The notes: generated from the letters alone by a model not told the origin. Positions 42,503 through 64,000 are shown, numbered from the stretch's first letter. The stretch is DNA of 64,000 bases from Blastocatellia bacterium (GCA_033856915.1 JAWVEB010000002.1:24672-88671), one strand, 5' to 3'. A program made the numbers and translations.

Positions 42503-42512
42503 GATTTTACAT

Positions 42513-44588: not shown

Positions 44589-44638
44589 CCAATCTCCTCA
44601 CGCGATAACCTGCTGTTGTCGTTTCACGTCATGCGGAT

Positions 44639-48318: not shown

Positions 48319-48319
48319 C

Positions 48320-51300: not shown

Positions 51301-51394
51301 CAAAGCAGTCGGGTAACCGGCTCTCACTCTTGAAAGCGTCCACGGCCGGGCTCAGCACCCGTTTGATATAATCAGCTTCGTCGAATTTCCACAT
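48320..51394 (-). CDS. J-like / double zinc-ribbon protein with helical (TPR-like) middle and C-terminal beta-rich (FN3/Ig-like) repeats; paralogue of 51610..53349
   Basis: The first ~375 aa are homologous to the next gene, and aa 1-67 are identical. The J-helix-like segment is RDLYEFLGVDRGCSKDRLTESLRKRELEWRQKK, with no HPD. The zinc ribbons are VRCAKCLALV...CTTCGAELWTTCPRCSS...CAKCGF. The C-terminal ~500 aa are rich in short beta-strand patterns. Confidence 0.7.
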   Translation of the reverse strand: MWKFDEADYIKRVLSPAVDAFKSESRLPDCFERYDLPITVSDPKEIETAITTVHAYWNKSKQNPRFGKVLSVLLAPKEQQDARRNLLDSEARKAVRELVEAERKKSREKRFAALDRSIRMVASKGYIDPGELSVLLAQHRCESLTEQEIRSRVRVPIRESSVRLPTNEGLPKGTREQIRSGLNVLQKRDLYEFLGVDRGCSKDRLTESLRKRELEWRQKKSDFTLTNANLLLGLIKTHMVDGDAAKYDAALAYEAVEVLRPEVRLAAGDKLITKAEFKQLLGVALSHGLAQETAAEYILTLAREYGAAVEWSTDEETVRCAKCLALVPLKTNAQSCTTCGAELWTTCPRCSSRAAASDPACAKCGFKTGDLPRVRLLVRQAQLELGEGRIEESHETAREAERLWERSGDVAKLLDRIEVAVEQVRGLRREIDETVAARRFFAARTKLASLATVAPNYLGLDGKDLPQLKGEVEEKLKLCKGLLTKARECEQKGRLNEAVFAYQDALQIVADAEEAQRGLQRCPPEPAANVLAQSHEGKVQVEWQPSPAVGGSEYIIVRREGRAALSLADGDVVARVATTSCLDQRARPASHVFYTVFTERTGVLSKGVSSAGMLVMQEVSNLSVEASGGLVNCSWEFDVPEGRVRVFRQESRPPSRAGDGLEIAPTGPHNLLDRGVSNGHLYYYRVVVEYRDAKGQPVFTSGIVRSVRPEQPPPAIDEFQITLEEGVVHVSWVPPKHGAVSFYRTFQKPEWRIGEQIPAAKLAALGVPLRIELNNLAVDFAPSTQPAFYVPVTIAGDVAVIGNARRYLTTQDVSHLKAVDFGRYLQLQWRWPEDSRLAVVAWRHDAYPHDPLDARATTHRISRGEYDGEGGFRINDPAKAPYYVVVFAVTQVDGEDIYSSGISPGAHDLLRTSLPLSISYSISRGNWLHRNRITITFNAEREAKHLPEIVVIAKRGDIQPLPNNNGILLATISDLSLHSGTPVSHEFTLDAVRRPCYLRAFFRDGPQAHTFRLIDPPPQQLRIT
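50270..51394. repeat. paralogous 5' module, copy 1 (matches 52225..53349)
   Basis: The ~315 nt at the 5' ends are near-identical between copies (1 aa change in the first ~105 aa). There are further identical patches, e.g. gcttgaactcagctttcgtgatcagtttgtcgcccgccgccaatcgcacttccggtcgcag. Overall identity is ~80% aa over ~375 aa. Confidence 0.85.
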
Positions 51395-51609
51395 CGCCTA
51401 GATTCCGGCAGAGTACTCATGAGACGTTTGACCCGCCTGACTGTTGCATAACCGGCAGGTAGACACCCTGTTGATTGGCCTTTTCCGTGACAAACCTAGT
51501 TTCAGTCATTTACATACGCACCGGCGTGTTGTTGTGAATCAGTTAGACGAATCACCTATCACCGTGATCTGAGTTCATGGCTACAATGCCCAATCCGTTG
51601 GAGCAGACA

Positions 51610-53349
51610 TTAGTGACCTAGCGATTTCGCGGACTGGTGTGACACAAAGGAATGCGATTCGGACCAAGCCGCCTCCTTACTTCTCAACGCCCAAAGTGTA
51701 AAGGTTCCCTTAAAGCCCTTCATCTCCACGTCGTCATGCCGCACCCAATTGAGGCTCCGATGGTGCTTCGCCCAATAATCATCTACGTGTTCTTTCGCTT
51801 GGTTACTCAACCAAATTTCACTCGCTTCTTTGATGGCGCCGAGCACCCGAGCGGCAAAGTTCACAGTTCCGCCAAAGACGTCATTATCTTCAACCTGCAT
51901 CGGACCGATATGAATGCCCGCGCGAATTTGCACGTGCGAGTGACCAGTCTCCGCTTGCAACGCCATGCCGTAGTCCAACGCCTTATCCACAGACTTAAAC
52001 GTCACCATGAAGCTGTCGCCGATGGTTTTGACTTCCCGCCCGCTGTATTCATTAATTAGTTTGCGGCTTTGCCCGAAGTGCGCGCGCCGGACTTCGTTCA
52101 TGCTCTCTCCCTTAAGTTCTTCACCGAGAGATGTCGAGCCGACGACATCCGTGAAGATAATCGCCAACACGACGCGATCGCCCCCGGCCCAGGCAGAAAA
52201 ACTCGGACCGCTTATTCCGCTGCGCGCCGACTCCACGAACATTCCCATTTTGAATCCACATTTGGAGCAGGCAGGATCGTCTACCGGCATGCGTGCAGAG
52301 CACTTTGGACAGTTGGCCCATAGACCTTCTCCGCACGTTGTGCAACTCTCCGCTTTGGTCTGGAGGCGTACCTGAGCAAGGCAGTTCGCACAATGAACTA
52401 CATCTTCGTCGATAAACCATTCGACGACAGCGTCGTACTCTCGCGCCAGGGTCAGAATGTATTCCGCGGCAGTTCCCCTCGCCAGACCGTGGCTCAGTGC
52501 AACACGCAGTAACTGCTTGAACTCAGCTTTCGTGATCAGTTTGTCGCCCGCCGCCAATCGCACTTCCGGTCGCAGAACCTCGAGAGTCTCGTACGCGAGC
52601 GCGGCATCGTACTTCGCGGGATCGCCGTCAATCAGGTACGCCTTAATGAGACCTAGCAGCAGATTCGCCGCAGTCAAGTTAAAGTCGCTTTTCTTTTGCC
52701 GCCACTCCAACGCACGTTTGCGAAGACTCTCAGTCAGTCGCTCTTTCGAACCACCTCGCTCGACTCCGAGGAAATCGTACAGGTCGCGCTTCTGCAGAAC
52801 GGCGAGCGCGCTCCTGATCTGTTCCCGCGTCCTCTTGGGCAGCCCCTCAGAAATCGGAGAGCGCAAGGAAGATTCCCGGATCGGAACGCGCACCCGCGAC
52901 TTGATCTCATCTTCCGTCAAACTCTCGCGCTGGAAACGAGCCACTAGGTCATTGAACTCACCGGGACCGATATAGCCCTTCGAAGCGATCACTTCGATCG
53001 ACCTGTCCAGAGCCGCGACTCGCTTTTCACGGATCTTCTTACGCTCCGCCTCGACAAGTTCGCGTACCGCTTTGCGAGCTTCCGAATCCAGCAGATTACG
53101 CCGGGCATCCTGCTGTTCTTTTGGCGCCAGCAAGACTGACAACAACTTGCCAAAGCGCGGATTCTGTTTACTTTTATTCCAGTAGGCGTGGACAGTCGTG
53201 ATCGCGGTCTCGATCTCCTTCGGGTCGGAGACTGTGATCGGCAGATCATAACGCTCAAAGCAGTCCGGTAACCGGCTCTCACTCTTGAAAGCGTCCACGG
53301 CCGGGCTCAGCACCCGTTTGATATAATCAGCTTCGTCGAATTTCCACAT
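51610..53349 (-). CDS. J-like / double zinc-ribbon protein fused to a class III nucleotidyl (adenylate/guanylate-type) cyclase domain
   Basis: It has the same N-terminal module as 48320..51394 (DLYDFLGVERGGSKERLTESLRKRALEWRQKK; CANCLAQV...CTTCGEGLWANCPKCSA...CSKCGF). Cyclase motifs are VLAIIFTDVVGSTSL, REVKTIGDSFMVTF, IRAGIHIGP, FGGTVNFAARV and VEMKGFKGTFTLWAL. Confidence 0.85.
   Translation of the reverse strand: MWKFDEADYIKRVLSPAVDAFKSESRLPDCFERYDLPITVSDPKEIETAITTVHAYWNKSKQNPRFGKLLSVLLAPKEQQDARRNLLDSEARKAVRELVEAERKKIREKRVAALDRSIEVIASKGYIGPGEFNDLVARFQRESLTEDEIKSRVRVPIRESSLRSPISEGLPKRTREQIRSALAVLQKRDLYDFLGVERGGSKERLTESLRKRALEWRQKKSDFNLTAANLLLGLIKAYLIDGDPAKYDAALAYETLEVLRPEVRLAAGDKLITKAEFKQLLRVALSHGLARGTAAEYILTLAREYDAVVEWFIDEDVVHCANCLAQVRLQTKAESCTTCGEGLWANCPKCSARMPVDDPACSKCGFKMGMFVESARSGISGPSFSAWAGGDRVVLAIIFTDVVGSTSLGEELKGESMNEVRRAHFGQSRKLINEYSGREVKTIGDSFMVTFKSVDKALDYGMALQAETGHSHVQIRAGIHIGPMQVEDNDVFGGTVNFAARVLGAIKEASEIWLSNQAKEHVDDYWAKHHRSLNWVRHDDVEMKGFKGTFTLWALRSKEAAWSESHSFVSHQSAKSLGH
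52225..53349. repeat. paralogous 5' module, copy 2 (matches 50270..51394)
   Basis: See copy 1. Confidence 0.85.
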
Positions 53350-53373
53350 CGCCCGATGCCCTTGCGGCGCAAG

Positions 53374-55056
53374 CTACGAGACGGTCTGTTTCAACAGCAT
53401 TCCCTTGCTGGCTTCGATTTCCTGTTGGCTCATAACGCCTTCAACCTTTACTTCCAAATTCAAATCTCTACCTGAAGAGGGCTCCACCGCTGTAACACTC
53501 AGCGTCCCGTCCTCCGCGAGGCGAAAAGTGACGTGAATCGGCGAACCCGCAGGCAGGTTGGCTGGCAAAGGCGCGATCTCGCCCTCGCTGATCAACCTGT
53601 TGTCTTCAGGTGACGGAGATTGCGTCTGGCCGGCCTGCTCCATGACGCGCACCGAGACCTGCTGTTGGTTTGGCCTGAGCGTGCCAAATCCAGTCTCGGT
53701 AACTTCGACGGGAACCGGTGTGTTGTTCTGGATTAGATATGCCACATACTCCTTTTCACCGTCCTCAGCATCAACCGCAACTACGCCGAAACCCTTGGAA
53801 CAAACGTTGATGATTTTTCGCGTAGCCATGTCGGCGAGATCTTTGCTCGGCAGACGAAACTTCCCGCCGGCCGTAGCAGTTGCTTTCTTTGCAGCCTCCG
53901 CGATAGTTCCCTGATCGATCTCCGCCAGATCAACCTCCTCGATCGTCGTTCCCGTCTCGTTGGCAATGATCTCCCTGATCATTTCGCCCGCCATGATCTT
54001 CTGGCCCATTAAGGCCGCGCCCTTCGCCACTGACAAATCGGGTTCGAAAAGATTAGTCTCGATCCCAAACTCCTCTTGCATTCTCCGGGCAACAGCGGGC
54101 ATTTTACTTAGGCCTCCGACCAGCAGGATCTGATCGATTTTGCCGATGCCTTTTCCCTTGGCTTCTTCCAATACATGTCGCGTCAGATCAATCGTCTGTT
54201 GCAAGAGATCGGCGGTCAACTCTTCCAGTTTCTCTCGCGTTACCTCGACACGCGCCCGCTTGCCGTTGTGGGAAACCATCAGCGGATATTTCTCTTTCGC
54301 GGACAATCCCTTCTTGATCTCTTCTGCCGATTTGGCAAGCTCTTGCATCGAATAGGGGTCGTCGAGAGGATTGCTCTCACCGGCGTTCTCAGTCATGAAC
54401 TGTTCCGCCAAATATTCGATCAGCCGATCGTCCCAATCTTTGCCCCCCAGATTGTGATTGCCGCCTGTAACCACGACGCGAATATCTCCTTGTTCCATGG
54501 CGATCACCGTGATGTCAAAAGTGCCGCCGCCCAAATCGTAAACGAGCACAACCTCATCACCTTTTGTTTTGTCGTCGCCGTAGCAGATTGCCGCCGCCGT
54601 TGGCTCATTGAGAATATTGACGACGTTCAGGTCAGCCAGGATCCCGGCATTCTTGGTCGCTTCGCGTTCGTTGATCCCGAAGTATGCGGGGCAAGTGATC
54701 ACCACATCTTTGATCTGGTCGCCGACCGTCTGCGAGGCGTCGCTGGCCAGCTTGCGCAAAATGTAGGAAGAGATTTCCTCAGGCCGATAGCTTTTGCCGT
54801 CTATCTCGCGGCTGAACGTCGCGTCACCCATATTGCGCTTCACGAATTCCACGACCCGCCCGGGATCAACCTTACTGGCATTCTTTGCTTCCTTGCCCAC
54901 GACAATGTTGTCCGCACTTTCAAAATGAACGACCGAAGGCGTGGTCAGGTCTCCCTCGAAGTTTGGCACCACGACGGGCTTGCCCCACTCGTCCACATAG
55001 GAGATACATGAATAGGTTGTGCCAAGATCAATTCCGTAGATACGACTCGCGGTCAT
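53374..55056 (-). CDS. non-canonical short Hsp70-family chaperone (NBD + beta-SBD, no helical lid or EEVD tail)
   Basis: Motifs are YGIDLGTTYSCISY, VITCPAYF...ILNEPTAAAICYG, VLVYDLGGGTFDITV and ILLVGGLSKMPAV. The SBD-like part is IHVTFRLAEDGTLSVTAVE. Its ATG overlaps the stop of the GrpE-like gene (ATGA). Confidence 0.9.
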   Translation of the reverse strand: MTASRIYGIDLGTTYSCISYVDEWGKPVVVPNFEGDLTTPSVVHFESADNIVVGKEAKNASKVDPGRVVEFVKRNMGDATFSREIDGKSYRPEEISSYILRKLASDASQTVGDQIKDVVITCPAYFGINEREATKNAGILADLNVVNILNEPTAAAICYGDDKTKGDEVVLVYDLGGGTFDITVIAMEQGDIRVVVTGGNHNLGGKDWDDRLIEYLAEQFMTENAGESNPLDDPYSMQELAKSAEEIKKGLSAKEKYPLMVSHNGKRARVEVTREKLEELTADLLQQTIDLTRHVLEEAKGKGIGKIDQILLVGGLSKMPAVARRMQEEFGIETNLFEPDLSVAKGAALMGQKIMAGEMIREIIANETGTTIEEVDLAEIDQGTIAEAAKKATATAGGKFRLPSKDLADMATRKIINVCSKGFGVVAVDAEDGEKEYVAYLIQNNTPVPVEVTETGFGTLRPNQQQVSVRVMEQAGQTQSPSPEDNRLISEGEIAPLPANLPAGSPIHVTFRLAEDGTLSVTAVEPSSGRDLNLEVKVEGVMSQQEIEASKGMLLKQTVS

Positions 55057-55832
55057 TTCCCTGTTTCCTCCGTTGGTTGATCGGCACTCACGGCCTTTTC
55101 GTTGTCTGTTGCCTCATCCAGGGCGGCGCCCCGTGTGAAGCGAAACACCTCAGCCTCTAAAATGCGAATGATCTTTGTGTCAGTGCGGAAGCCTACGCGC
55201 ACGACACGCGCAATTGCCCTATCAAAGCCAGCGTTCTGCGTGGGAACGACGCCAAGAGCCTTCTGTTCTTTGGAATTGAATGGTGAGCCCTCTAGAGCTT
55301 CGTACCGCTCAACTCCGTGCCGGTAGAGGACATCCTCGACGGCATCGCAGAAAGACTTGAAATCACGTGAGATCTCTTTCATGTCTGCGTCGGCGCGCTC
55401 TTCAAATCTTTTCCCGGTCTGCTTGAGGTCGTCGTAGAGCCTTATGAGATCACGAAATAGCGGAGCGACGGCTTGCGAAATCTCACCGGCACGGAGCTGC
55501 TGATTCTCCTGGTGCAAACGGTCAATTATGCGTTCGCGATCGCTGGAAAGAACGTTAGCTTCCTCGAGAAGGGCGGCTAGCTGCTCGACACGTTGACTCA
55601 AAATCTGAATACCCTCGTTATGCTGGTCCGTGGCAGCCTCAACCTGTTGGTTGGGGACGACCTCTGCTGTAACAACTTGTTCTACTGAAGGGACGTCAGT
55701 GGGTTCTTCTGACACAACTGAATTCGTCGGCGTAATCTCGGAAGCGGGCGGCTGCTCGCCTTCCGGTTCGTTCTGTTCTGCGAGACCCGTGCTTGTTTCA
55801 TCTACACTCATGAAAGTTCCCTCTACAGTCAA
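55053..55832 (-). CDS. GrpE-like nucleotide exchange factor (probable start ATG at 55811)
   Basis: It has an acidic N-terminus and a long coiled coil (VEQLAALLEEANVLSSDRERIIDRLHQENQQL). The C-terminal beta domain is GVERYEALEGSPFNSKEQKALGVVPT...IARVVRVGFRTDTKIIRILEAEV. GAGGGA precedes the ATG at 55811. Confidence 0.7.
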   Translation of the reverse strand: MTVEGTFMSVDETSTGLAEQNEPEGEQPPASEITPTNSVVSEEPTDVPSVEQVVTAEVVPNQQVEAATDQHNEGIQILSQRVEQLAALLEEANVLSSDRERIIDRLHQENQQLRAGEISQAVAPLFRDLIRLYDDLKQTGKRFEERADADMKEISRDFKSFCDAVEDVLYRHGVERYEALEGSPFNSKEQKALGVVPTQNAGFDRAIARVVRVGFRTDTKIIRILEAEVFRFTRGAALDEATDNEKAVSADQPTEETGK

Positions 55833-56850: not shown

Positions 56851-57168
56851 TCAGACCTGGAATTCGCTATCCAAGTTGTCATTGAGAATGAGATCAATAC
56901 GATTGTGTAACTCATCAATATTCTCAAGGGCTAAAGCGACCATTTCCGCCGGAGCGCCCGATTGATCCTGCCTGACGCCGTACAGGATGACACCGCCGTC
57001 CGCATTTGCCATCGACGAGACGTCCTTGAGAAATTCAAATTTCCTGTCATCGCTTAGGGGCAGAAGCGCAAGTTTGTATTCGATCTGCGGCCCTTCCCGT
57101 ACAGCTCTCGTCTGAAGGTTTTCAATATCGGCGCAAGAGATTGACGCGATGTCTTCCAAGAGTCTCAT
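56851..57168 (-). pseudogene. truncated AlbA_2/Schlafen-type (divergent AAA_4) DNA-binding domain gene, only ~105 aa
   Basis: EGPQIEYKLAL...KFEFLKDVSSMANADGGVILYGV matches the E.K...AfANt.GG.l..GV pattern of AlbA_2 N-termini. Normal family members are 400+ aa. An in-frame stop sits at 56851, and no continuation is seen downstream. Confidence 0.5.
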
Positions 57169-57471
57169 ATTAATAGGCAGCGATTGGGCTCACAGGTCTA
57201 TCCCGCATGATAGCATTGCGCATTCTGGGGAAACAGGAATAGTCTAGGTCAGTTTCGGTCGGACACGGACCCATCAGAAACAGTTTAGGTCTATCGAAAA
57301 CTATGTGCCTCGCATCAAGAACAACTCACAGGTCCGTAGCAGGTCCGTTGGCTTAAAGAGGAGACCGAGCAAGGGCCACAAAAGTAGGACAGCGTAGGCC
57401 CGTCCAGCAGGTACATTAACGTTTCGATTTGCTGTAGTTGGAATGTCAATTTTAGCGATCTTGATTCGACC

Positions 57472-59163
57472 ATGAGACTTCAAAGAGTTGAAATCTCACA
57501 TCTCTGGAGCTTCGGCTCGGTAAACCCGGTCGTAGTTGATGAATTTGATAAGCTTAATGTCATTATTGGGAAGAACAATGTTGGAAAGTCTAACCTACTG
57601 AGGGCTATCAAGTGGATCAGAGAGGAGTTCGAGTGCTTTGGACAAGATTGGTTGAGCTACTCTTCGAAAAAGGCCTGCCATTACATTCCAAGTAAGGCGC
57701 AGACACTTGTAAAGCCCGCGTTACGCCTCACTTTCTCTCTTGATGTCCGCGATTGGGAAAGCATGACTTATCAAGGTTCCGTCGCGTCCCTCATTGAGAC
57801 GGATGTCGCAGCGTTGCAATGCAAAATCGATGTCGGTTTTCATCCCCCAGGAGGCACGGGAAGCCTGAAGGGACTTTTTGCAAATGTCCAACCTTACGAC
57901 GAGAAAAGGTTTCAGAACTGTTGTGAGAACACTGGCATCTCACAACAAGATGCGATGGACAGCCTCAGGAAAGCAGCTCTCAATCATATTATCGAGCGTT
58001 TGATCGTCTTGGATGGGTGGCGACGTTTGGCGGATCCTGTCGAATCGGATTCAAATTTCTACGAGTTTATGCACAATCTGAAAGCAGCTACTCTTGATGA
58101 GAACAGACACTATCAAATTTTTAGACACGTACAAGATTTTTTTTGCGAACTGACTTATCTGAAAGGAGCAGAAATCAATGTCCGCGAGGACAGGAAAGGG
58201 TTCAACGTAACCTTTAACGAAAGAACTCTTTCGTTATCAAATTTTGGCGATGGCATCTCTCATCTTCTGATGATAGCTGCAAAGGTTGCTCTTCACGATG
58301 GCTGCATAATATTAATCGAAGAGCCTGAGACGCACCTTCACCCCCATTTGCAACGCCACCTACTCCGCTTTCTTGCGACGCGACAAGCGCAGGTGGTCTT
58401 GACAACTCACTCGCCCACCCTGCTGGATACCAGTTTGGTCAACCGAATTATTCGGATCGAGAATAATGGAGATAACTCGATCGTCAGTGCCGTCAACACG
58501 CCTAAGAATATCTACGCCGTTCTCGATGATCTTGGCGCGCGCGCAAGCGACATTTTGCAGGCTAATGTTGTAATTTGGGTGGAAGGGCCGAGCGATCGAA
58601 TTTTTCTCAAGAGGTGCCTGGACTTTGCCAAAGAGTTCCAGGAGGGAATCCACTTTCAAATTGTTTGCTACGGAGGCGCGCTTCGATCTCACCTCACGGT
58701 TGATCAAAGGTTGGAGTCGTTAATAAACCTGCTCAGACTGTCACGGACTGCAATCATGGTTTGCGACAGCGATAGAAAAAAGGAAGGCGACCAAATAAAC
58801 GCGTCCAAGAAACGTCTTGAGCAAGAGTTCAAGCAAATCGGCGGAATGTACTGGATCACAGAGGGACGTGAGATTGAGAACTACATCAGAGACGAGGTTC
58901 TAACAAGGTCGTACAGGGGATTATTGAATGACGAGAACATTGAAATCAAACTGGATCAATACGAACAACTCGGACCGGTCATAAAAAAGCTCGGCAAGAA
59001 CCTTAAGAGAGGCGACAAATGGAAAGCGAACTACGATGCCCATAAAGTTGAGTTGATGAATCTTTTTGTGGAGAACATCCGGGTGGAGGAAGACTTGGAT
59101 CGGTATGACTTACGAAGTCGATTGGATGAAGTTAAGAGAGTGATCGCGCGAGCAAATAATTAA
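57472..59163 (+). CDS. OLD-family ATP-dependent nuclease (ABC-type ATPase + Toprim)
   Basis: The N-terminus is MRLQRVEISHLWSF...VIIGKNNVGKSNLLRAI (Walker A). It has ILIEEPETHLHPHLQ (Walker B / D-loop). The Toprim motifs are VIWVEGPSDRIFL and MVCDSDRK. Confidence 0.85.
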   Translation: MRLQRVEISHLWSFGSVNPVVVDEFDKLNVIIGKNNVGKSNLLRAIKWIREEFECFGQDWLSYSSKKACHYIPSKAQTLVKPALRLTFSLDVRDWESMTYQGSVASLIETDVAALQCKIDVGFHPPGGTGSLKGLFANVQPYDEKRFQNCCENTGISQQDAMDSLRKAALNHIIERLIVLDGWRRLADPVESDSNFYEFMHNLKAATLDENRHYQIFRHVQDFFCELTYLKGAEINVREDRKGFNVTFNERTLSLSNFGDGISHLLMIAAKVALHDGCIILIEEPETHLHPHLQRHLLRFLATRQAQVVLTTHSPTLLDTSLVNRIIRIENNGDNSIVSAVNTPKNIYAVLDDLGARASDILQANVVIWVEGPSDRIFLKRCLDFAKEFQEGIHFQIVCYGGALRSHLTVDQRLESLINLLRLSRTAIMVCDSDRKKEGDQINASKKRLEQEFKQIGGMYWITEGREIENYIRDEVLTRSYRGLLNDENIEIKLDQYEQLGPVIKKLGKNLKRGDKWKANYDAHKVELMNLFVENIRVEEDLDRYDLRSRLDEVKRVIARANN

Positions 59164-59182
59164 AGCAAGGTCTCGACAGAAC

Positions 59183-62100
59183 ATGACACAAGCATTTCAG
59201 TATGATGTGTTTATTAGCTACGGCTTCAAGGACAGAGTTGTAGTCTCTGAACTCGCTGAGCGGATGAAGGTTGATGGTTTCCGGGTTTGGTTAGCGGAGT
59301 GGGAGATTCAGCCCGGCGACGGAATAGCCGACAAAATCAATCAAGGCCTAGCTCTGTCACGCACACTAATATTAGCCACATCATCGAACATCGCAGAATT
59401 AGAATGGGTGACTTTTGAACGTCAAATAGCTCTCTTTACTGACCCATCTTCTCCGGATCGTCGATTTATCCTCTTGCGGTTAGATGATTCGAAGATCAAA
59501 GAATCGTTGAAGCAGTTCGCCTATGTAGACTGGCGACAGACGGCCCTTGAAGAGTACGCAAAACTTCGGGCGGTTTGCTCTGAGCCGAACGAAACGAACG
59601 ACGCGGAGGCGATAAAGCAACAGCGACCGCAATCAAATAGAATTCTCAGAGGGCATACCGAATACGTTGGGGCCGTCTCGATCACAGCAAACGGAAAGTT
59701 TGCTATCTCGGGCTCCGGTGACAAAACCGTGCGGGTCTGGGATGTCAGCACTGGCAAGTGTCTGAACGTCCTCAAAGGGCATACCGATTCAGTAAACGGA
59801 GTTGCTATAACACCTAACGGAAAGCGCGCGGTCTCCGGATCGAACGATCAAAGTCTACGCGTCTGGGATGTCAAAACCGGAGAGTGTCTTAAGGTCCTCA
59901 ACGGACATATTGGCCGCGTTTATGGAGTGGCAGTTAGCGCGGACGGTAGATACGCTGTGTCCGGCTCCAACGATAAGACTGTTCGCGTTTGGGATACCAG
60001 GACGGGCAAATGCCTTGCGACTCTCGAAGGGCATACAAGTGTAGTAAGTAGCGTTGCTATTACAGCCCCCGGGCAAATCGTTTCTGGCTCTGACGACAAA
60101 ACGCTCCGCGTTTGGGATGTGAACACAGGAAGTTGTATTGCAGTTCTTGAAGGTCATACCGGTCCCGTATTTGCAGTAGCTGTAACGGACGATGGGCGAC
60201 GGGCCATCTCCGGCTCGGGCGACAAGGATATGACTGTTAGAGTTTGGGACCTTCAAGTTGGCAAGTGTCTCGGAACGCTCGAGGGGCAAACTAGTCCGGT
60301 AAACGGAGTTGCCATAACACCGGATGGGCGGCGTGCCATATCCGGCTCGGATGACGATACGGTGGGAGTGTGGGACGTCGAAACGGGTAAGTGCCTCACC
60401 ATATTTAAGGGCCACGCCAATCCCGTGAATGGCGTCGCAGTGGCGGCAGATGGAAGATGCGCAGCTTCCGGCTCTGTCGACAAGACCGTTAGACTATGGA
60501 GACTTCCCCAGTATGACCACGAAGTTTCTGAACAGTTGACGACGACTCACTATACAAATGCGAAGGTACTTTTAGTAGGTGACAGTGGGGTAGGTAAGTC
60601 AGGATTGGCATATCGTCTCGCACAGAATCGATTTGTCTCAACGATTTCAACCGATGGCGTATGGGCCACACAACTGAAGCTTCCTCGAGAGGGGCGAAAT
60701 ACTACAGTCGAAAAAGAAATCTGGTTGTGGGATTTTGCTGGTCAAGCCGACTATAGATTAATCCACCAGCTTTTCATGGACGAAACTGCATTGGCCGTAC
60801 TCGTATTCGACCCCCAAAGTGAAAACCCATTCGCGGGTCTTGGTGAATGGGACCGCGATCTGCAAACGGCCGCACGGAGAACGTTTAAGAAATTATTGGT
60901 TGCCGGCCGATGTGATCGAGGCGGCCTGATTGTGAGTCGCGCCAGCATCGATCGTTTTCGTAAAGAGCGCAACTATACAAACTTTCTTGAAACCAGCGCC
61001 TACACTGGCGAGGGCTGCGACGAACTACTCACTGCCATAGTCCGTGGCATCCCTTGGGATGACGTTCCATGGACCGCCTCGCCCCGTATATTCAAACTTC
61101 TCAAGGACGAAATCATAAAGCTTAAAGACGAAGGGAAGGCGCTCCTTCGAATAACTGAGCTCAAACAGCAATTGGAAATGCGACTCTTAGGCGCGACATT
61201 TACGCTAGAGCAATTGCGGGCGGTGATAGGACTTTTGGCAGGGCCGGGGATTGTATGGCAATTGGAGTTCGGGGACTTCGTGCTTCTTCAACCCGAGCGT
61301 GCCAACTCGTATGCTGCAGCTGTGATTAGAAGGGTTCGCGCCCATACGGAAGAGATCGGCGTCATTCTTGAAGAGGACGTTCTGGCCGGGAGGCTAGACT
61401 ATCAGAATATGAAAAGACTGGCGCCAGATGACGAGCAAATCGTATTGCGAGCGATGCACCAGACATTTCTAGAACGCGGACTGTGCCTGCGCCAACCAAC
61501 TGAGAAAGGCGCGCTTTTGGTTTTCCCGTCGTATTTCAAGCGAGAGCGGCCGGAACTGGAAGGCCATCCCGCTGTCTTTGTGACTTACCGCTTCGAAGGC
61601 TCCAGCCAGCAAATCTATTCGACGTTAGTGGTGAAGTTACACCACACACTCGCGTTTGAGACGGATCAGCTTTGGCGGTTTGCTGCCGATTTCAGAACTC
61701 CAGCTGGCGCGCGCGTCGGTTTAAAGATGACTGAACTCACTGAGGGGACGGCGGAGATCGCAGTTTACTTTGAGCCGGGAGTCGCTGATGACATGAAGGT
61801 TACCTTTATTCGGTATGTTCATGATCATTTACAGACATATGCGCAAGACGTTAGGCGACTTCGACATTATGTTTGCCCACACTGCCATACGCCCGTCGAA
61901 AACCGTAACACAGCCGGTGAGCGCCTAAATCGCGGATTGGATAATATTCTCTGTGTTAACTGCGAGAAGCGTGTACCACTATGGGACTTAATTGAGCAAA
62001 AATTTGCGTCTGAAGAACTTCAGCGTGACGTCCTTAAGTTGAAAGAACAGGTTGAGAAAAAAATAGATAATGAGAGTAAGGAATTGATCTTAGTAGGTCA

Positions 62101-62500
62101 CGCTTTTGCAATCGCAGGAGAAGCTGGACAGATTTTTCGTCCAACGCCTAATTCTGATTGGGGAATTGACGGTGAGATAGAATTTAAGGATGACAAAGGC
62201 GAAGCGAGCGGGAAACGAGTTTATCTCCAACTCAAATCTGGTGACTCCAACATTTATAAACGGAAGACTGACGACAAAGAGATTTTCAGTATTAAGAAGC
62301 CGCGGCACACTGATTATTGGAAGGCTCAGGCTTATCCAGTAATGCTTGTGATTCGAACTGAGGATCGCCAAATCCGGTGGATGAACGTAACGGACTATCT
62401 CCGTCAGCATCCAAATACTCGGCAAATAGTTTTCGAAGGAGAGGCTTTCACGGCAACGGATGTTCTTAGACTGAGAGACAAATTGTTAAGGGAAGCATGA
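59183..62500 (+). CDS. multidomain TIR - 7x WD40 - Roc GTPase/COR - zinc ribbon - DUF4365 (PD-(D/E)xK-like) protein
   Basis: The TIR part is YDVFISYGFKDR...FRVWLAEWEIQPGD...LEWVTFE. Seven GH..V..VA....G..A.SGS.D.T.RVWD repeats follow. The Roc part is KVLLVGDSGVGKSGLAYRL, LWDFAGQADY and LLVAGRCD. The zinc ribbon is CPHCHTPV...CVNCEKRV. The tail is SDWGIDGEIEFKDDKGEASGKRVYLQLKSG. Confidence 0.85.
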   Translation: MTQAFQYDVFISYGFKDRVVVSELAERMKVDGFRVWLAEWEIQPGDGIADKINQGLALSRTLILATSSNIAELEWVTFERQIALFTDPSSPDRRFILLRLDDSKIKESLKQFAYVDWRQTALEEYAKLRAVCSEPNETNDAEAIKQQRPQSNRILRGHTEYVGAVSITANGKFAISGSGDKTVRVWDVSTGKCLNVLKGHTDSVNGVAITPNGKRAVSGSNDQSLRVWDVKTGECLKVLNGHIGRVYGVAVSADGRYAVSGSNDKTVRVWDTRTGKCLATLEGHTSVVSSVAITAPGQIVSGSDDKTLRVWDVNTGSCIAVLEGHTGPVFAVAVTDDGRRAISGSGDKDMTVRVWDLQVGKCLGTLEGQTSPVNGVAITPDGRRAISGSDDDTVGVWDVETGKCLTIFKGHANPVNGVAVAADGRCAASGSVDKTVRLWRLPQYDHEVSEQLTTTHYTNAKVLLVGDSGVGKSGLAYRLAQNRFVSTISTDGVWATQLKLPREGRNTTVEKEIWLWDFAGQADYRLIHQLFMDETALAVLVFDPQSENPFAGLGEWDRDLQTAARRTFKKLLVAGRCDRGGLIVSRASIDRFRKERNYTNFLETSAYTGEGCDELLTAIVRGIPWDDVPWTASPRIFKLLKDEIIKLKDEGKALLRITELKQQLEMRLLGATFTLEQLRAVIGLLAGPGIVWQLEFGDFVLLQPERANSYAAAVIRRVRAHTEEIGVILEEDVLAGRLDYQNMKRLAPDDEQIVLRAMHQTFLERGLCLRQPTEKGALLVFPSYFKRERPELEGHPAVFVTYRFEGSSQQIYSTLVVKLHHTLAFETDQLWRFAADFRTPAGARVGLKMTELTEGTAEIAVYFEPGVADDMKVTFIRYVHDHLQTYAQDVRRLRHYVCPHCHTPVENRNTAGERLNRGLDNILCVNCEKRVPLWDLIEQKFASEELQRDVLKLKEQVEKKIDNESKELILVGHAFAIAGEAGQIFRPTPNSDWGIDGEIEFKDDKGEASGKRVYLQLKSGDSNIYKRKTDDKEIFSIKKPRHTDYWKAQAYPVMLVIRTEDRQIRWMNVTDYLRQHPNTRQIVFEGEAFTATDVLRLRDKLLREA

Positions 62501-62559: not shown

Positions 62560-63339
62560 ATGAACACCTTGCGAAATTCAATCACGAGCGCATGGATCCG
62601 GGAGGTTCGCGACGGCTTGCGCAATCGTGGGTACTACTATGAGTCAGGATTTTGGCCCGATTCGGATAAATCATTGTTAGCCGTGGCTCAGTTGTTGGGC
62701 GAAATATACATCGTTGCAGGTACCAAAGAGCCGCTGCCTGTGATCAAGACTCAGCCTGCGCGCTCTGCTCCCCCATGGCGTCCCTTTGATCGCCCCGTTC
62801 CAATTCGATGGCACAACGACTTCTCAACGCGCGCGCGAAGGCCCGAACTGAGTTTGTCGTGGATTCAGAGAGAAGATCCGGCCGGGCCAAACAATGGCGC
62901 ATGGTGGGTTGCTTCCTCGGCAGCCGTTCTGGCGAAACTTTGTCAGGCCCGCGAGGGAAAGCGCGTGGCCGCTGACCTCAGACAACGAGCGCAACCGTTC
63001 GGCTATCGTGACGCAGGTAGCTGGCACCCGTTTCGTGTAATCGGCAGTGGGAATCGCGGATTTGGCAAGGATCGATTACGTTTCTATGGGCCGGCGCTCG
63101 AAGACGGCGCGTTGCTTCGTTTTGGCAATGTCCCTGAATACACCAAAGAAATTGTTTCACGAATCGAAGAAGCGGCCGATGCGGTTCGTGAGGTGCTACC
63201 AGCCACAACTGGATCACTTCTGATCGTTCACAATGGATTGAGTTTGCACGACAGATCACCTCAGACCGTGACTGGTCCGGCAAAGCGTCGGCGACAGGCG
63301 TTGCTCTGTTTCGTTAAGCGACTTCACCATCCACTGTGA
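62560..63339 (+). CDS. hypothetical protein, possibly Fe(II)/2-oxoglutarate (TauD/TfdA-like) dioxygenase fold
   Basis: A possible HxD (IRWHNDFS) and a distal His (LLIVHNGLSLHDRS) are present. The assignment is weak. Confidence 0.4.
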   Translation: MNTLRNSITSAWIREVRDGLRNRGYYYESGFWPDSDKSLLAVAQLLGEIYIVAGTKEPLPVIKTQPARSAPPWRPFDRPVPIRWHNDFSTRARRPELSLSWIQREDPAGPNNGAWWVASSAAVLAKLCQAREGKRVAADLRQRAQPFGYRDAGSWHPFRVIGSGNRGFGKDRLRFYGPALEDGALLRFGNVPEYTKEIVSRIEEAADAVREVLPATTGSLLIVHNGLSLHDRSPQTVTGPAKRRRQALLCFVKRLHHPL

Positions 63340-63361
63340 TGAGTTAAACTGACAAATGGAA

Positions 63362-64000
63362 TTAAGGGCGGACAGCCAGGAGAAAGACATTGATCGACTG
63401 GGCCAGGGGCTCGCCACGCCAGGAGTCAAAGAGTTCTACTTCTTGGAAACCAACTTGAGATGCCCAGGCCGCAACCTCATTTGCATCGGCGGCAGCGAGT
63501 TGGTGTTCTTCAAACAATAACTCTCCGCTGCTCTTACAACCATACACGTACTCTGCCCTCATCTCACCCGGACTCTCATTGACCTGATTGAAACGATAAA
63601 GAAACAAGACGTCATCCGGTTGTCCGTCAGGTCCGGGTTCTCGATCTTCTTTGAGCGCTCCCATAGCGTTAGGAGCATGCGCGATCTGAAGAATCAGTCG
63701 TCCTCCCGGCTTCAACGCTTTGAAGAAGCGAGTCAAAACGTCTGCAGCCTCAACGAAGGAACCCACATAGTTGAAGGACCAACTCAGGGAGATTATGCCA
63801 TCGTAGCTTTCGCATTCTTCTAACTCCTGCATTCGAGCGACACAGAGGCGATCCGCGCTTACACGCTTCGAGGCGATAGCTATCATTTCCGGGGAGATAT
63901 CAATTCCGGTGCCGTCGAAACCAGCATTAACGGCCTTTTCAAGAAAGACTCCTGTACCGCATCCGACGTCGAGAATGCGACAGGGAGGTCTAGGAAGACG
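63362..64000 (-). CDS. class I SAM-dependent methyltransferase; 5' end (N-terminus) outside the window
   Basis: The frame is open to the window edge. The minus-strand translation of 63887..64000 gives RILDVGCGTGVFLEKAVNAGFDGTGIDISPEMI (motif I). It continues ...FKALKPGGRLILQ (post-II/III). Confidence 0.8.
   Translation of the reverse strand, partial: RLPRPPCRILDVGCGTGVFLEKAVNAGFDGTGIDISPEMIAIASKRVSADRLCVARMQELEECESYDGIISLSWSFNYVGSFVEAADVLTRFFKALKPGGRLILQIAHAPNAMGALKEDREPGPDGQPDDVLFLYRFNQVNESPGEMRAEYVYGCKSSGELLFEEHQLAAADANEVAAWASQVGFQEVELFDSWRGEPLAQSINVFLLAVRP

What the first reader, a model, noticed from the sequence alone, without database searches (positions are those of the whole stretch)
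59183..62500. 1105-aa TIR - WD40 propeller - Roc/COR GTPase - zinc ribbon - DUF4365 nuclease-like fusion
Seen: the domains occur in this order, each with clear motifs (see the feature entry). The seven WD40 blades are highly regular. Established: TIR domains in bacterial immunity act as NADases or signal generators. Roc-COR (ROCO) proteins are GTP-regulated switches. WD40 arrays serve as sensors in STAND/NLR-like proteins. DUF4365 has a restriction-endonuclease-like fold. Inference: it is a single-protein sensor, switch and dual-effector architecture, analogous to NLR-like antiphage proteins but using a Roc GTPase instead of a STAND NTPase. I do not know of a characterised example.
Basis: partly seen in the sequence, partly recalled or inferred. 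Interest (0 to 1): 0.7.

Follow-up and report, generated by a model that had tools for sequence, protein, structure and literature searches.

The report
Bacterial Roco GTPase with two death effectors
This gene encodes one 1105-residue protein that joins a variable WD40 propeller, a LRRK2-type Roc-COR GTPase switch, an NAD-degrading TIR domain and a SPARDA-type nuclease; it is most likely a self-contained antiviral suicide sensor of a widespread family that was predicted by computation but has never been tested.

Summary
ORF 59183-62500 (+) encodes 1105 aa in this order: TIR_2, a 7-bladed WD40 propeller, a Roc/Ras G domain, COR, a 4-Cys zinc ribbon and DUF4365. Pfam finds no COR, but an AlphaFold model (pLDDT 83.8) matches Roco proteins first (CtRoco, LRRK1/2; E about 1e-19 over about 500 columns). 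It is not an assembly chimera. The same architecture recurs in nearly all of 80 loci read, and 272 species-representative loci across at least 10 phyla encode the core. Predicted catalytic residues are conserved: TIR Glu79, P-loop, DxxGQ, and the nuclease D996/Q1016/K1018. Roc-COR is the most conserved part. Loops on the propeller's top face are near-maximally variable. Relatives of the same core carry other end modules: TIR, metallophosphoesterase or cyclase. The gene has no conserved partner. Here it lies beside an OLD-like ATPase and a DO-GTPase/GAP1 conflict system, but most homologues sit among housekeeping genes. The idea is not new. Kaur et al. 2021 predicted AP-GTPase(Roc)-COR counter-invader proteins, and their source data list "TIR+BetaPropeller+AP-GTPase". 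I found no experimental work. Verdict: a real, uncharacterised, dual-effector WD40 variant of a predicted class. Its function is inferred.

The parts
59183..62500 (+). Whole gene: 1105-aa TIR - WD40 - Roc - COR - zinc ribbon - DUF4365 protein (stop codon 62498-62500)
   Evidence: ORF list. The exact protein is on JGI metagenome contig Ga0467061_0000056, 165 kb. The same architecture is found in nearly all of 80 loci.
59207..59560 (+). TIR domain (aa 9-126); predicted catalytic Glu79 at 59417-59419
   Evidence: Pfam TIR_2, 79.5 bits. Nearest solved relatives are bacterial TIR proteins: 7uxr, PdTIR 3h16, AbTir 7uwg/8g83. E79 aligns with their W-x-x-x-E glutamate. W75 is invariant and E79 at least 90% conserved.
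59588..59635 (+). Flexible, hypervariable linker between TIR and the propeller (aa 136-151)
   Evidence: pLDDT below 50 in the full-length model. Entropy above 3.2 bits.
59639..60502 (+). Seven-bladed WD40 propeller (aa 153-440), the putative ligand sensor
   Evidence: Seven PF00400 stretches. 28 strands in the model. It is the most variable domain, with a mean of 1.83 bits, and the hypervariable positions recur in the d-a loop and b-c turn of each blade.
60548..61057 (+). Roc (Ras-like) G domain (aa 456-625): G1 GDSGVGKS 466-473 (60578-60601), G3 DFAGQ 517-521, atypical G4 GRCD 575-578, G5 ETSA 603-606
   Evidence: Pfam Ras 84.8 and Roc 68.9 bits. PDB sequence hits to Rab29/Rab/Ypt. Motifs are invariant or nearly so.
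61058..61867 (+). COR domain (aa 626-895: winged-helix COR-A plus alpha/beta COR-B)
   Evidence: No Pfam hit. Foldseek alignments to CtRoco 6hlu/3dpu, LRRK1 8e05 and LRRK2 8fo9 run about 500-600 columns through Roc and this region. Mean entropy is 0.79 bits.
61868..61987 (+). Four-cysteine zinc ribbon (aa 896-935; CPHC 898-901, CVNC 924-927)
   Evidence: All four Cys are invariant in 68 homologues. Short beta-hairpins in the model. Pfam zinc-finger hits are all below threshold.
61988..62107 (+). Conserved helical connector (aa 936-975)
   Evidence: Helices 936-941, 944-960 and 963-980 in the model. Mean entropy 0.94 bits.
62108..62497 (+). DUF4365 / DREN-type PD-(D/E)xK nuclease domain (aa 976-1105): GIDGEIEF 994-1001 (D996, E1000 invariant); QLK 1016-1018 at 62228-62236
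   Evidence: Pfam DUF4365, 78.4 bits. Aligns to solved DUF4365-APAZ chains 9qbq/9qbp (E 1e-8 and 3e-7) and, weakly, to NbaSPARDA DREN-APAZ 9jsb (E 0.02), sharing GxDG..E and QxKS. Q62A/K64A inactivates the TmuRE nuclease.

Best explanation
The gene encodes a stand-alone, single-polypeptide innate-immune sensor built on a Roco (Roc-COR) GTPase switch.

Proposed mechanism:
1. The top face of the WD40 propeller binds an invader-derived ligand, most likely a phage protein.
2. Binding is passed to the adjacent Roc-COR module. Its nucleotide state controls self-association through COR, as in characterised Roco proteins.
3. The change in oligomeric state brings the flexibly tethered end domains together. 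Both belong to effector classes that are inactive as monomers and switch on when clustered.
4. The TIR domain degrades NAD+, and the DUF4365/DREN nuclease cuts nucleic acids without sequence specificity.
5. The infected cell dies or arrests before the phage completes its cycle (abortive infection).

Shown here: the domain composition and order, the Roco fold, intact predicted catalytic and G motifs, a conserved switch next to a hypervariable sensor surface, module swapping in the family, absence of partner genes, and a patchy distribution across phyla.

Inferred: the ligand, the direction of the GTP/oligomer coupling, both enzymatic activities, and the immune outcome.
For: Architecture and fold.

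Effector competence:
- TIR E79 aligns with the glutamate of AbTir/PdTIR-type bacterial TIR proteins.
- DUF4365 keeps D996/E1000/Q1016/K1018 and aligns to SPARDA DUF4365-APAZ structures.
- In SPARDA, Q62/K64 are required for nuclease activity (PMC10810196), and the domain is inert as a monomer but active once tetramerised on a filament (PMC12205087).

Switch: G1, G3 and G5 are canonical and invariant or nearly so. Roc and COR are the most conserved parts (0.77 and 0.79 bits).

Sensor: the propeller is the most variable domain (1.83 bits). In every blade, positions of 3.2-4.0 bits sit at GH-x-X-X-V-X and SGS-X-D-X. By the model's strand assignment these are the d-a loop/start of strand a and the b-c turn, which form the top face of WD40 propellers (the face assignment rests on established WD40 topology).

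Conflict-system hallmarks:
- The same Roc-COR-ZnR core carries a C-terminal TIR, metallophosphoesterase, nucleotide cyclase or TIR+HATPase instead of DUF4365, with 7 or 14 blades or none.
- 272 loci in species-representative genomes of at least 10 phyla, at 54-78% identity in the 80 kept, with two copies in some genomes.
- No conserved neighbour.

Local context: the gene sits 19 bp downstream of an OLD/GajA-like ATPase and beside a DO-GTPase/GAP1-N2 system, in a low-GC patch.

Independent prediction of the class: Kaur et al. 2021.
Against: - There is no experimental evidence for any member.
- Defence-island association is weak. In five of six other annotated loci the gene lies between ordinary housekeeping genes. 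No homologue was found in 50,697 phage records, and only three distant ones on plasmids.
- The G4 motif is GRCD rather than NKxD, so nucleotide affinity or specificity could be unusual.
- The inter-domain arrangement is unresolved (pTM 0.46), so nothing shows how the propeller talks to Roc-COR or whether the two effectors can cluster.
- The 97%-identical closest relative has no differences at the hypervariable sites, so there is no sign of ongoing rapid diversification.
- PADLOC has no model for the whole protein; only its domains hit.
Confidence: 0.6

Rival explanations
1. It is an endogenous signalling or programmed-cell-death regulator rather than an anti-invader sensor. For example, it could control development, kin discrimination or stress-induced death in soil bacteria with complex life styles, with the propeller binding a host protein.
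For: Most sampled homologues lie among housekeeping genes, and two relatives share one fixed site (lptE/holA | folP/ftsH). Six Nostoc genomes share flanking genes around the gene. WD40-NTPase proteins with hypervariable repeats also mediate allorecognition in fungi (own knowledge). No phage-borne copies were found.
Against: There is no conserved partner or operon. The family is patchy across at least 10 phyla at 54-78% identity. The end modules are swapped. The binding face is hypervariable. Two destructive enzymatic domains keep intact active-site residues. In this window the gene sits in a conflict island.
Confidence: 0.15
2. It is an immune protein, but the roles are assigned differently. 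The DUF4365 domain with the zinc ribbon is the sensor that binds or nicks foreign DNA. The WD40 propeller is an oligomerisation or scaffold platform, as in LRRK2. TIR is then the only true effector.
For: The zinc ribbon and a restriction-endonuclease-fold domain sit together at the C terminus, and both can bind nucleic acid. The LRRK2 WD40 mediates self-association (own knowledge). Rare homologues have lost the nuclease QxK (L048 HLQLR, L069 LRFR) yet keep the rest of the protein. The C-terminal position is where other relatives carry TIR.
Against: In relatives the C-terminal slot is filled by classic effector enzymes (metallophosphoesterase, cyclase, TIR), not by sensors. The hypervariable positions lie on the propeller's ligand-binding face, not on the nuclease domain, which averages 1.0 bit. 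The nuclease active-site residues are invariant or nearly so in 68 homologues, which points to catalysis.
Confidence: 0.12
3. It is an immune protein, but the TIR domain is not an NAD+ depleter. It makes a cyclic-ADPR-type signal or acts only as an assembly scaffold, and the nuclease does the killing.
For: The nearest solved TIRs (the AbTir group) make cADPR isomers as well as hydrolysing NAD+ (own knowledge; for the similarity). Many bacterial TIRs act as signal generators.
Against: No conserved neighbouring receptor or effector gene exists to read such a signal. Relatives that carry TIR alone in the C-terminal effector slot imply that TIR can be the terminal effector.
Confidence: 0.12
4. The ORF is an assembly or gene-calling chimera of separate TIR-WD40, GTPase and DUF4365 genes.
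For: Some database entries are short (about 640-780 aa). A few genomes have the gene split into two ORFs (L044, L078 and others).
Against: The short entries start inside WD40 blades, so they are truncated calls. The full architecture recurs in nearly all of 80 loci from independent assemblies, including complete chromosomes OY969475.1 and OZ253444.1. 91 of 120 close homologues carry the TIR.
Confidence: 0.01

Closest known systems
Prokaryotic AP-GTPase (Roc)-COR 'counter-invader' proteins predicted by Kaur, Iyer, Burroughs & Aravind 2021 (eLife 10:e70394, PMC8195603)
   Same: Both have a Roc/AP-GTPase plus COR core in one polypeptide, with a repeat-type putative sensor N-terminal to it and variable effector domains including TIR and REase-fold nucleases. 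Both occur as multiple paralogues per genome and are predicted to act as GTP-switched immune or apoptotic devices. Their source data contain about 14 entries written 'TIR+BetaPropeller+AP-GTPase' (28 string occurrences, each entry printed twice), 1000-1236 aa, which NCBI names 'DUF4365 domain-containing protein'. That is this family.
   Different: The archetype described in the text is LRR-Roc-COR-effector, with one C-terminal effector. Here the sensor is a WD40 propeller, and there are two effectors, one at each end (TIR and DUF4365), plus a conserved zinc ribbon after COR. In their table the COR, zinc ribbon and nuclease of this family are not annotated. Neither study has experimental data.
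Characterised Roco proteins: Chlorobium tepidum Roco (LRR-Roc-COR; PDB 6hlu, 3dpu), Methanosarcina barkeri Roco2 (4wnr), human LRRK1/LRRK2
   Same: The Roc-COR tandem fold is shared. These are the top 24 structural matches (E 8.8e-20 to 2e-12), most aligned over about 500-600 columns spanning Roc, COR-A and COR-B. LRRK2 also contains a WD40 propeller.
   Different: Sequence identity is only 12-17%, and Pfam COR models do not detect it. There is no LRR, ankyrin or kinase. The propeller is N-terminal to Roc, not C-terminal as in LRRK2. G4 is GRCD. There are TIR and nuclease effectors. The biological role of the bacterial Roco proteins used as LRRK2 models is not established (own knowledge).
SPARDA (short prokaryotic Argonaute + DREN/DUF4365-APAZ) defence systems
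   Same: The effector nuclease domain is the same: DUF4365 with a GxDG..E..QxK active site. In SPARDA it is a non-specific DNase/RNase that is inactive as a monomer and activated by tetramerisation within a filament.
   Different: There is no Argonaute, no APAZ and no guide nucleic acid. Here the domain is C-terminal and tethered to a GTPase switch, whereas in SPARDA it is N-terminal to APAZ. Activation by clustering is an inference here.
STAND/NLR-like single-protein antiphage sensors (Avs, bNACHT) and fungal HET-E/NWD NACHT-WD40 proteins
   Same: The logic is the same: effector, NTP-dependent switch and repeat sensor in one protein, with effector-module swapping and a diversifying repeat surface. 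TIR and REase-fold nucleases are common effectors in these proteins (own knowledge).
   Different: The switch is a Ras-superfamily GTPase with COR, not a STAND ATPase. The only STAND hit is nSTAND3 at E 0.033, far below its cut-off. The domain order differs too: the sensor lies N-terminal to the switch, and there are two effectors.
DO-GTPase/GAP1 GTPase-centric conflict systems (Kaur et al. 2020, PMC7159879)
   Same: These are also predicted GTPase-switched conflict systems with variable effectors. One lies 1.3-17 kb upstream in this window.
   Different: The GTPase family is different (septin/GIMAP-like TRAFAC DO-GTPases). They are multi-gene systems with GAP1, HSP70 and other components. They share no components with the Roco gene.

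Membership tests
Roco proteins (Roc-COR tandem) | Ras-like Roc G domain | tested here: met
   Pfam Roc 68.9 bits (cut-off 27) and Ras 84.8 bits, aa 461-623. Rab-like by PDB sequence search.
Roco proteins (Roc-COR tandem) | COR domain directly C-terminal to Roc, detected by sequence profile | tested here: not met
   No Pfam family hits aa 630-900 even at E <= 1. The PDB sequence search finds nothing beyond the G domain.
Roco proteins (Roc-COR tandem) | COR domain directly C-terminal to Roc, detected by fold | tested here: met
   AF2 model: pLDDT 83.8, pTM 0.75. Foldseek ranks 1-24 are all Roco proteins (6hlu, 3dpu, 8e05, 8fo9, 4wnr and others), most aligned over about 500-600 columns, E down to 8.8e-20. 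Rab-only hits follow at about 170 columns.
Roco proteins (Roc-COR tandem) | Intact nucleotide-binding motifs G1-G5 | tested here: inconclusive
   G1 GDSGVGKS, G3 DFAGQ and G5 ETSA are canonical and invariant or nearly so. G4 is GRCD instead of (N/T)KxD, with the Asp retained.
Roco proteins (Roc-COR tandem) | Nucleotide-dependent dimerisation through COR (GAD mechanism) | not testable with these tools
   Needs biochemistry or multimer modelling. The monomer model gives pTM 0.46 for the full length.
AP-GTPase counter-invader systems (Kaur et al. 2021) | AP-GTPase+COR core fused to a repeat sensor and variable effector domains, with several paralogues per genome | tested here: met
   Effector swapping on the same core. 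Two copies in OY969475.1, CAVSKO010000002.1 and others. The family is listed as 'TIR+BetaPropeller+AP-GTPase' in the paper's source data. The sensor is WD40 rather than the archetypal LRR.
TIR NADase effectors | TIR fold with the conserved catalytic glutamate | tested here: met
   TIR_2 79.5 bits. E79 aligns with the W-x-x-x-E glutamate of 7uxr, PdTIR 3h16 and AbTir 7uwg. That this glutamate is catalytic is own knowledge. E79 is at least 90% conserved and W75 is invariant.
TIR NADase effectors | NAD+ cleavage activity that depends on oligomerisation | not testable with these tools
   Requires an enzyme assay.
DUF4365 / DREN PD-(D/E)xK nucleases | DUF4365 profile match with the D...E...QxK active-site residues | tested here: met
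   78.4 bits against a cut-off of 24.3. Aligned to 9qbq, 9qbp and 9jsb with GxDG..E and QxKS shared. D996, E1000 and K1018 are invariant and Q1016 at least 90% conserved. Q62/K64 are essential in TmuRE.
SPARDA defence system | DUF4365 fused to APAZ and paired with a short Argonaute | tested here: not met
   No APAZ or Argonaute domain in the protein. No conserved neighbour in 80 loci. The PADLOC Aga_REase hits cover only the nuclease domain.
STAND / NLR-like antiphage sensors (Avs, bNACHT) | STAND-class NTPase (NACHT / NB-ARC / nSTAND) as the central switch | tested here: not met
   The only STAND hit is nSTAND3 at E 0.033, 14.3 bits against a cut-off of 27.2, on the P-loop region. The fold is Ras-like plus COR.
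Gabija / OLD / PARIS (as a two-gene system with the upstream ATPase) | Conserved pairing of the ATPase(-Toprim) gene with the partner gene | tested here: not met
   The upstream protein hits GajA, AriA and Old models, but the Toprim match is only weak. No homologue of it flanks the Roco gene in any of the 80 other loci read.

The most novel reading that the evidence does not exclude
This family would be the first demonstrated bacterial pattern-recognition immune receptor whose switch is a Ras-superfamily Roc-COR GTPase rather than a STAND ATPase. A hypervariable WD40 face would bind phage proteins. GTP-state-dependent COR oligomerisation would then fire two different clustering-activated effectors in one molecule: a TIR NADase and a DREN nuclease. 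That would give bacterial Roco proteins their long-missing biological function, and it would imply an ancestral immune or cell-death role for the LRRK2/DAPK1 lineage.
Probability: 0.45. Interest if true: 0.7.

Novelty: new variant of a known kind. Interest (0 to 1): 0.5.

Why it matters
Roco proteins are studied intensively because of LRRK2 and Parkinson's disease, and bacterial Roco proteins serve as structural models, yet their own biological role is not established. This family offers a compact, single-gene, abundant test case: 1044 clusters at 50% identity match the core at E <= 1e-30, and members occur in at least 10 phyla. The inputs and outputs of the Roc-COR switch are unusually easy to read. 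There is a propeller with a clearly delimited variable face, and there are two enzymatic outputs, NAD+ loss and DNA degradation. If the predicted function holds, three things follow. It would show a GTPase-switched alternative to STAND/NLR immunity in bacteria. It would give a simple assay for how ligand binding couples to the Roc nucleotide cycle and to COR-mediated oligomerisation. It would also test the 2021 computational prediction of AP-GTPase counter-invader systems. The novelty is limited by that earlier prediction and by the family's presence, in part, in that study's source data.

Tried and rejected
- COR by sequence: Pfam gave no hit for aa 630-900, and the PDB sequence search found only Rab-like G domains. 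The question was settled by structure prediction and fold search instead.
- Two-gene system with the upstream OLD/GajA-like ATPase (19-bp gap): rejected. None of the 80 other loci has a homologue nearby. The ABC ATPase fused to some relatives is only 28% identical over 131 aa.
- Any conserved neighbour: all-against-all clustering of 1206 flanking ORFs found only synteny among close relatives (the Nostoc group) and split halves of the gene itself.
- A 'short form' (GTPase-COR-DUF4365 only): mostly rejected among the close homologues, because those entries begin inside WD40 blades and are truncated calls. True propeller-less variants with an N-terminal TIR do exist among more distant representatives (P0136, P0225).
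- Near-identical DNA repeats in the propeller, as in fungal HET-E: rejected. TRF finds none, and blade nucleotide identity is about 46%.
- Ongoing diversification between the closest relatives: not seen. There are 43 differences from the 97% relative, none at hypervariable sites.
- Promoter and terminator scan: counts equal those of shuffled sequence, so it is uninformative.
- Phage-borne copies: none. On plasmids there are only three distant relatives.
- Literature searches for experimental work on bacterial Roco proteins in phage defence found nothing.
- The full-length model did not resolve the inter-domain arrangement (pTM 0.46), so no claim is made about contacts between the propeller, Roc-COR and the effectors.

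Full report
OBSERVATION. The window holds an ATG-initiated ORF at 59183..62500 (+) of 1105 aa, exactly as reported. The identical protein is on record on a 165-kb JGI metagenome contig. The whole-protein Pfam list is swamped by beta-propeller families (PF00400, seven stretches, 247 bits), so I scanned segments separately. That gave TIR_2 at aa 9-126 (79.5 bits), Ras/Roc at aa 461-623 (84.8 and 68.9 bits) and DUF4365 at aa 977-1097 (78.4 bits). The zinc-ribbon stretch gave only sub-threshold zinc-finger hits.

IS THERE A COR DOMAIN? Sequence comparison with all PDB chains found only Rab-type G domains (best Rab29/Rab7L1, E 3.7e-16) and nothing downstream of them. I built a 72-sequence alignment and predicted the structure of aa 450-960. 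The model has pLDDT 83.8 and pTM 0.75. Foldseek against the PDB returned Roco proteins in ranks 1-24: C. tepidum LRR-Roc-COR 6hlu (E 8.8e-20, 506 columns), its RocCOR tandem 3dpu, LRRK1 8e05/8e04/8fac, many LRRK2 entries, and M. barkeri Roco2 4wnr. Rab-only matches of about 170 columns start at rank 25. The region is therefore a genuine but sequence-divergent COR (12-17% identity), and the protein is a true Roco protein.

THE OTHER DOMAINS. The full-length model has pLDDT 81.7 and shows 28 strands between aa 153 and 440, i.e. a seven-bladed propeller. Low-confidence linkers lie at aa 136-151 and 446-454. With pTM at 0.46, the domains are well defined but their mutual arrangement is not. The blades are 55% identical to one another in protein sequence but are not near-identical DNA repeats. 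The nearest solved relatives of the TIR are bacterial TIR proteins: 7uxr, PdTIR 3h16 and AbTir 7uwg/8g83. Glu79 aligns with their W-x-x-x-E glutamate. The C-terminal domain aligns to solved DUF4365-APAZ chains of SPARDA systems (9qbq E 1e-8; 9qbp E 3e-7; more weakly NbaSPARDA DREN-APAZ 9jsb, E 0.02) and shares GxDG..E and QxKS with them. In SPARDA this domain is a non-specific DNase/RNase. It needs the Q-x-K residues (Q62A/K64A is inactive, PMC10810196). It is inert as a monomer and becomes active on tetramerisation within a filament (PMC12205087). In a 68-sequence full-length alignment the following are invariant or at least 90% conserved: W75 and E79; G466, G469, G471 and K472 (P-loop); D517, G520 and Q521 (DxxGQ); D578 (in an atypical GRCD G4); S605 and A606 (G5); C898, C901, C924 and C927; D996, E1000, Q1016 and K1018.

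NOT A CHIMERA, AND A LARGE FAMILY. The best 120 are 65-97% identical, and 91 of them carry the TIR. The 'short' entries begin inside WD40 blades, so they are truncated gene calls. A scan of one genome per species found 272 loci. The 80 kept come from Acidobacteriota (most), Nostoc, Planctomycetota, Chloroflexota, Armatimonadota, Nitrospirota, Verrucomicrobiota, Zixibacteria, Myxococcota, Thermodesulfobacteriota and Alphaproteobacteria, at 54-78% identity, with two copies in some genomes. Nearly all of the 80 show the same six-part order wherever the gene is complete, including on complete chromosomes. A full HMMER scan of 1.84 billion representatives with the Roc-COR-ZnR core gave 1044 clusters at E <= 1e-30.

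SENSOR, SWITCH AND EFFECTORS. Per-column entropy across the homologues is lowest in Roc (0.77 bits) and COR (0.79). It is intermediate in DUF4365 (1.0), the zinc ribbon (1.31) and TIR (1.34), and highest in the propeller (1.83). Within the propeller the variation is strictly periodic. In every blade the positions with 3.2-4.0 bits are GH-x-X-X-V-X and SGS-X-D-X. By the model's strand assignment these are the d-a loop/start of strand a and the b-c turn. Those loops form the top, ligand-binding face of WD40 propellers (established structural knowledge). This is the pattern expected for a diversifying recognition surface attached to a conserved switch. The closest relative (97% identical) has no differences at these sites, so the signal reflects deep divergence, not current diversification.

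MODULARITY. Among the 150 best representatives of the core, most have the canonical architecture. Others have 14 blades or no blades. Some carry a C-terminal TIR instead of DUF4365 (P0234, P0235, P0242, P0246, P0262, P0265). Others carry a calcineurin-like phosphoesterase (P0257, P0268, P0270), a nucleotide cyclase (P0243) or TIR plus HATPase (P0246). Extra modules also occur, such as ABC-type or AAA ATPases after the nuclease, or receiver or AAA_35 domains at the N terminus. Swapping enzymatic end modules on a constant core is typical of conflict systems.

CONTEXT. No gene is conserved next to it. Clustering of 1206 flanking ORFs found only synteny among close relatives and split halves of the gene itself. 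Of six other Pfam-annotated homologue loci, five have housekeeping flanks, and two of those share the site lptE/holA | folP/ftsH. One lies between an IS200-type transposase and MNT-type nucleotidyltransferases. In this window the gene lies 19 bp downstream of an OLD/GajA/AriA-like ABC ATPase whose Toprim match is only weak. No other locus has that ATPase, so it is a neighbour and not a partner. Upstream of that lies a Schlafen/AlbA_2 fragment, and then a complete DO-GTPase/GAP1-N2 system with HSP70-vWA, HSP70, GrpE and a cyclase. That matches the 'GTPase-centric' conflict systems of Kaur et al. 2020. GC falls to 0.46-0.49 across 57-59.5 kb, against 0.52-0.59 around it. Three distant (about 35%) relatives lie on Nostoc and Calothrix plasmids. 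The two Nostoc loci I read sit among MoxR/SAV_2336, NACHT and transposase genes. No relative is in the phage collection. Guilt by association is therefore present here but weak for the family as a whole.

MECHANISM (INFERRED). I propose five steps. (1) The propeller's top face binds an invader product. (2) This changes the nucleotide state or conformation of Roc-COR. (3) COR-mediated self-association changes; nucleotide-dependent dimer/monomer cycling is established for C. tepidum Roco (own knowledge). (4) The flexibly tethered TIR and DUF4365 domains are brought together, and both belong to classes that are activated by clustering. (5) NAD+ loss and non-specific nucleic-acid cleavage follow, stopping the infected cell. 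The anatomy and the conservation are shown here. Every step of the dynamics is inference. The rivals are an endogenous signalling or cell-death role, reversed sensor and effector roles (nuclease plus zinc ribbon as DNA sensor), TIR as a signal generator or scaffold, and assembly chimera. The last is refuted.

COMPARISON WITH WHAT IS KNOWN. The protein meets the fold-level definition of a Roco protein but escapes Pfam's COR models. It shares only the nuclease domain with SPARDA, with no APAZ or Argonaute. It works like STAND/NLR sensors (Avs, bNACHT) but is not one, because it has no STAND NTPase. The closest prior description is computational. Kaur et al. 2021 described prokaryotic LRR-AP-GTPase-COR proteins with at least 24 alternative C-terminal effector domains, TIR among them, as counter-invader systems. 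Their source data contain about 14 entries written 'TIR+BetaPropeller+AP-GTPase' (1000-1236 aa, NCBI name 'DUF4365 domain-containing protein'), which is this family with COR, the zinc ribbon and the nuclease left unannotated. Five literature searches found no experimental work on any bacterial Roco protein in defence.

VERDICT. This is a dual-effector, WD40-sensing variant of an already predicted class. It is abundant, self-contained and well suited to experiment. Interest 0.5.

Noticed in passing
window 40412-55832 (minus strand): A complete DO-GTPase/GAP1-N2 'GTPase-centric conflict system' in the sense of Kaur et al. 2020. Components: DO-GTPase (696 aa), HSP70+vWA (691 aa), GAP1 N2-M-C (849 aa), a second DO-GTPase (391 aa), a 1024-aa protein with no Pfam hit, an adenylate/guanylate cyclase (579 aa), HSP70 (560 aa) and GrpE (259 aa). 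It makes this region a conflict island.
   Followed up: partly
window 57472-59163 (+): A 563-aa OLD/GajA/AriA-like ABC ATPase (AAA_21/AAA_15; PADLOC AriA 92 bits, GajA 87 bits) with only a weak Toprim match (E 0.024). It ends 19 bp before the Roco gene. No GajB- or AriB-like partner was recognised among the neighbouring genes that were scanned. It is absent from the 80 other Roco loci read, so it is probably an independent single-gene OLD-family defence gene.
   Followed up: partly
window 56851-57168 (-): A 105-aa ORF matching only the N-terminal part of Schlafen/AlbA_2 (33.6 bits). It looks like a truncated remnant of a larger gene at the edge of the low-GC patch.
   Followed up: no
window 57000-59500: GC content drops to 0.46-0.49, against 0.52-0.59 on both sides. 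The dip covers the OLD-like gene and the 5' end of the Roco gene and suggests horizontal acquisition.
   Followed up: no
window 62560-63886 and beyond (L001 13378-21138): Downstream there is a repeated set of TauD-like dioxygenases and SAM methyltransferases around a 1423-aa UvrA-like ABC protein. This may be a small-molecule modification or resistance cluster. It seems unrelated to the finding.
   Followed up: no
P0144 (1727 aa), P0124, P0145 (representative proteins): Some family members carry two to five tandem DUF4365 domains after the zinc ribbon. These could be real effector multiplication or assembly artefacts.
   Followed up: no
L048 154-2559 and L069 1965-5267: Two homologues have degenerate nuclease motifs (QxK replaced by HLQLR and LRFR) while keeping the rest of the protein. 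These may be decayed or repurposed C-terminal domains.
   Followed up: no
L044, L078, L039, L055, L061, L064: In several genomes the gene is split into a TIR-WD40 ORF and a Roc-COR-DUF4365 ORF. This could be frameshifts, pseudogenes or assembly problems within the repetitive propeller.
   Followed up: no
L002 / L086 (homologues P0084, P0077): Two relatives about 68-69% identical to the query occupy the same chromosomal site, between lptE/holA and folP/ftsH/tilS. This suggests a stable insertion within one acidobacterial lineage.
   Followed up: no
L089 (Nostoc flagelliforme plasmid pNFSY08) and L090 (Nostoc sp. C057 plasmid p057_H): Distant (about 35%) Roc-COR-ZnR relatives are giant proteins of 1731 and 1443 aa, annotated 'NACHT domain-containing' and 'metallophosphoesterase'. 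They lie on conjugative megaplasmids next to MoxR/SAV_2336-type ternary-system genes, NACHT genes and transposases.
   Followed up: partly
L084 3421-7971 (Deltaproteobacteria MAG): A variant of 1517 aa replaces the TIR with an N-terminal region of about 600 aa that has no Pfam hit.
   Followed up: partly
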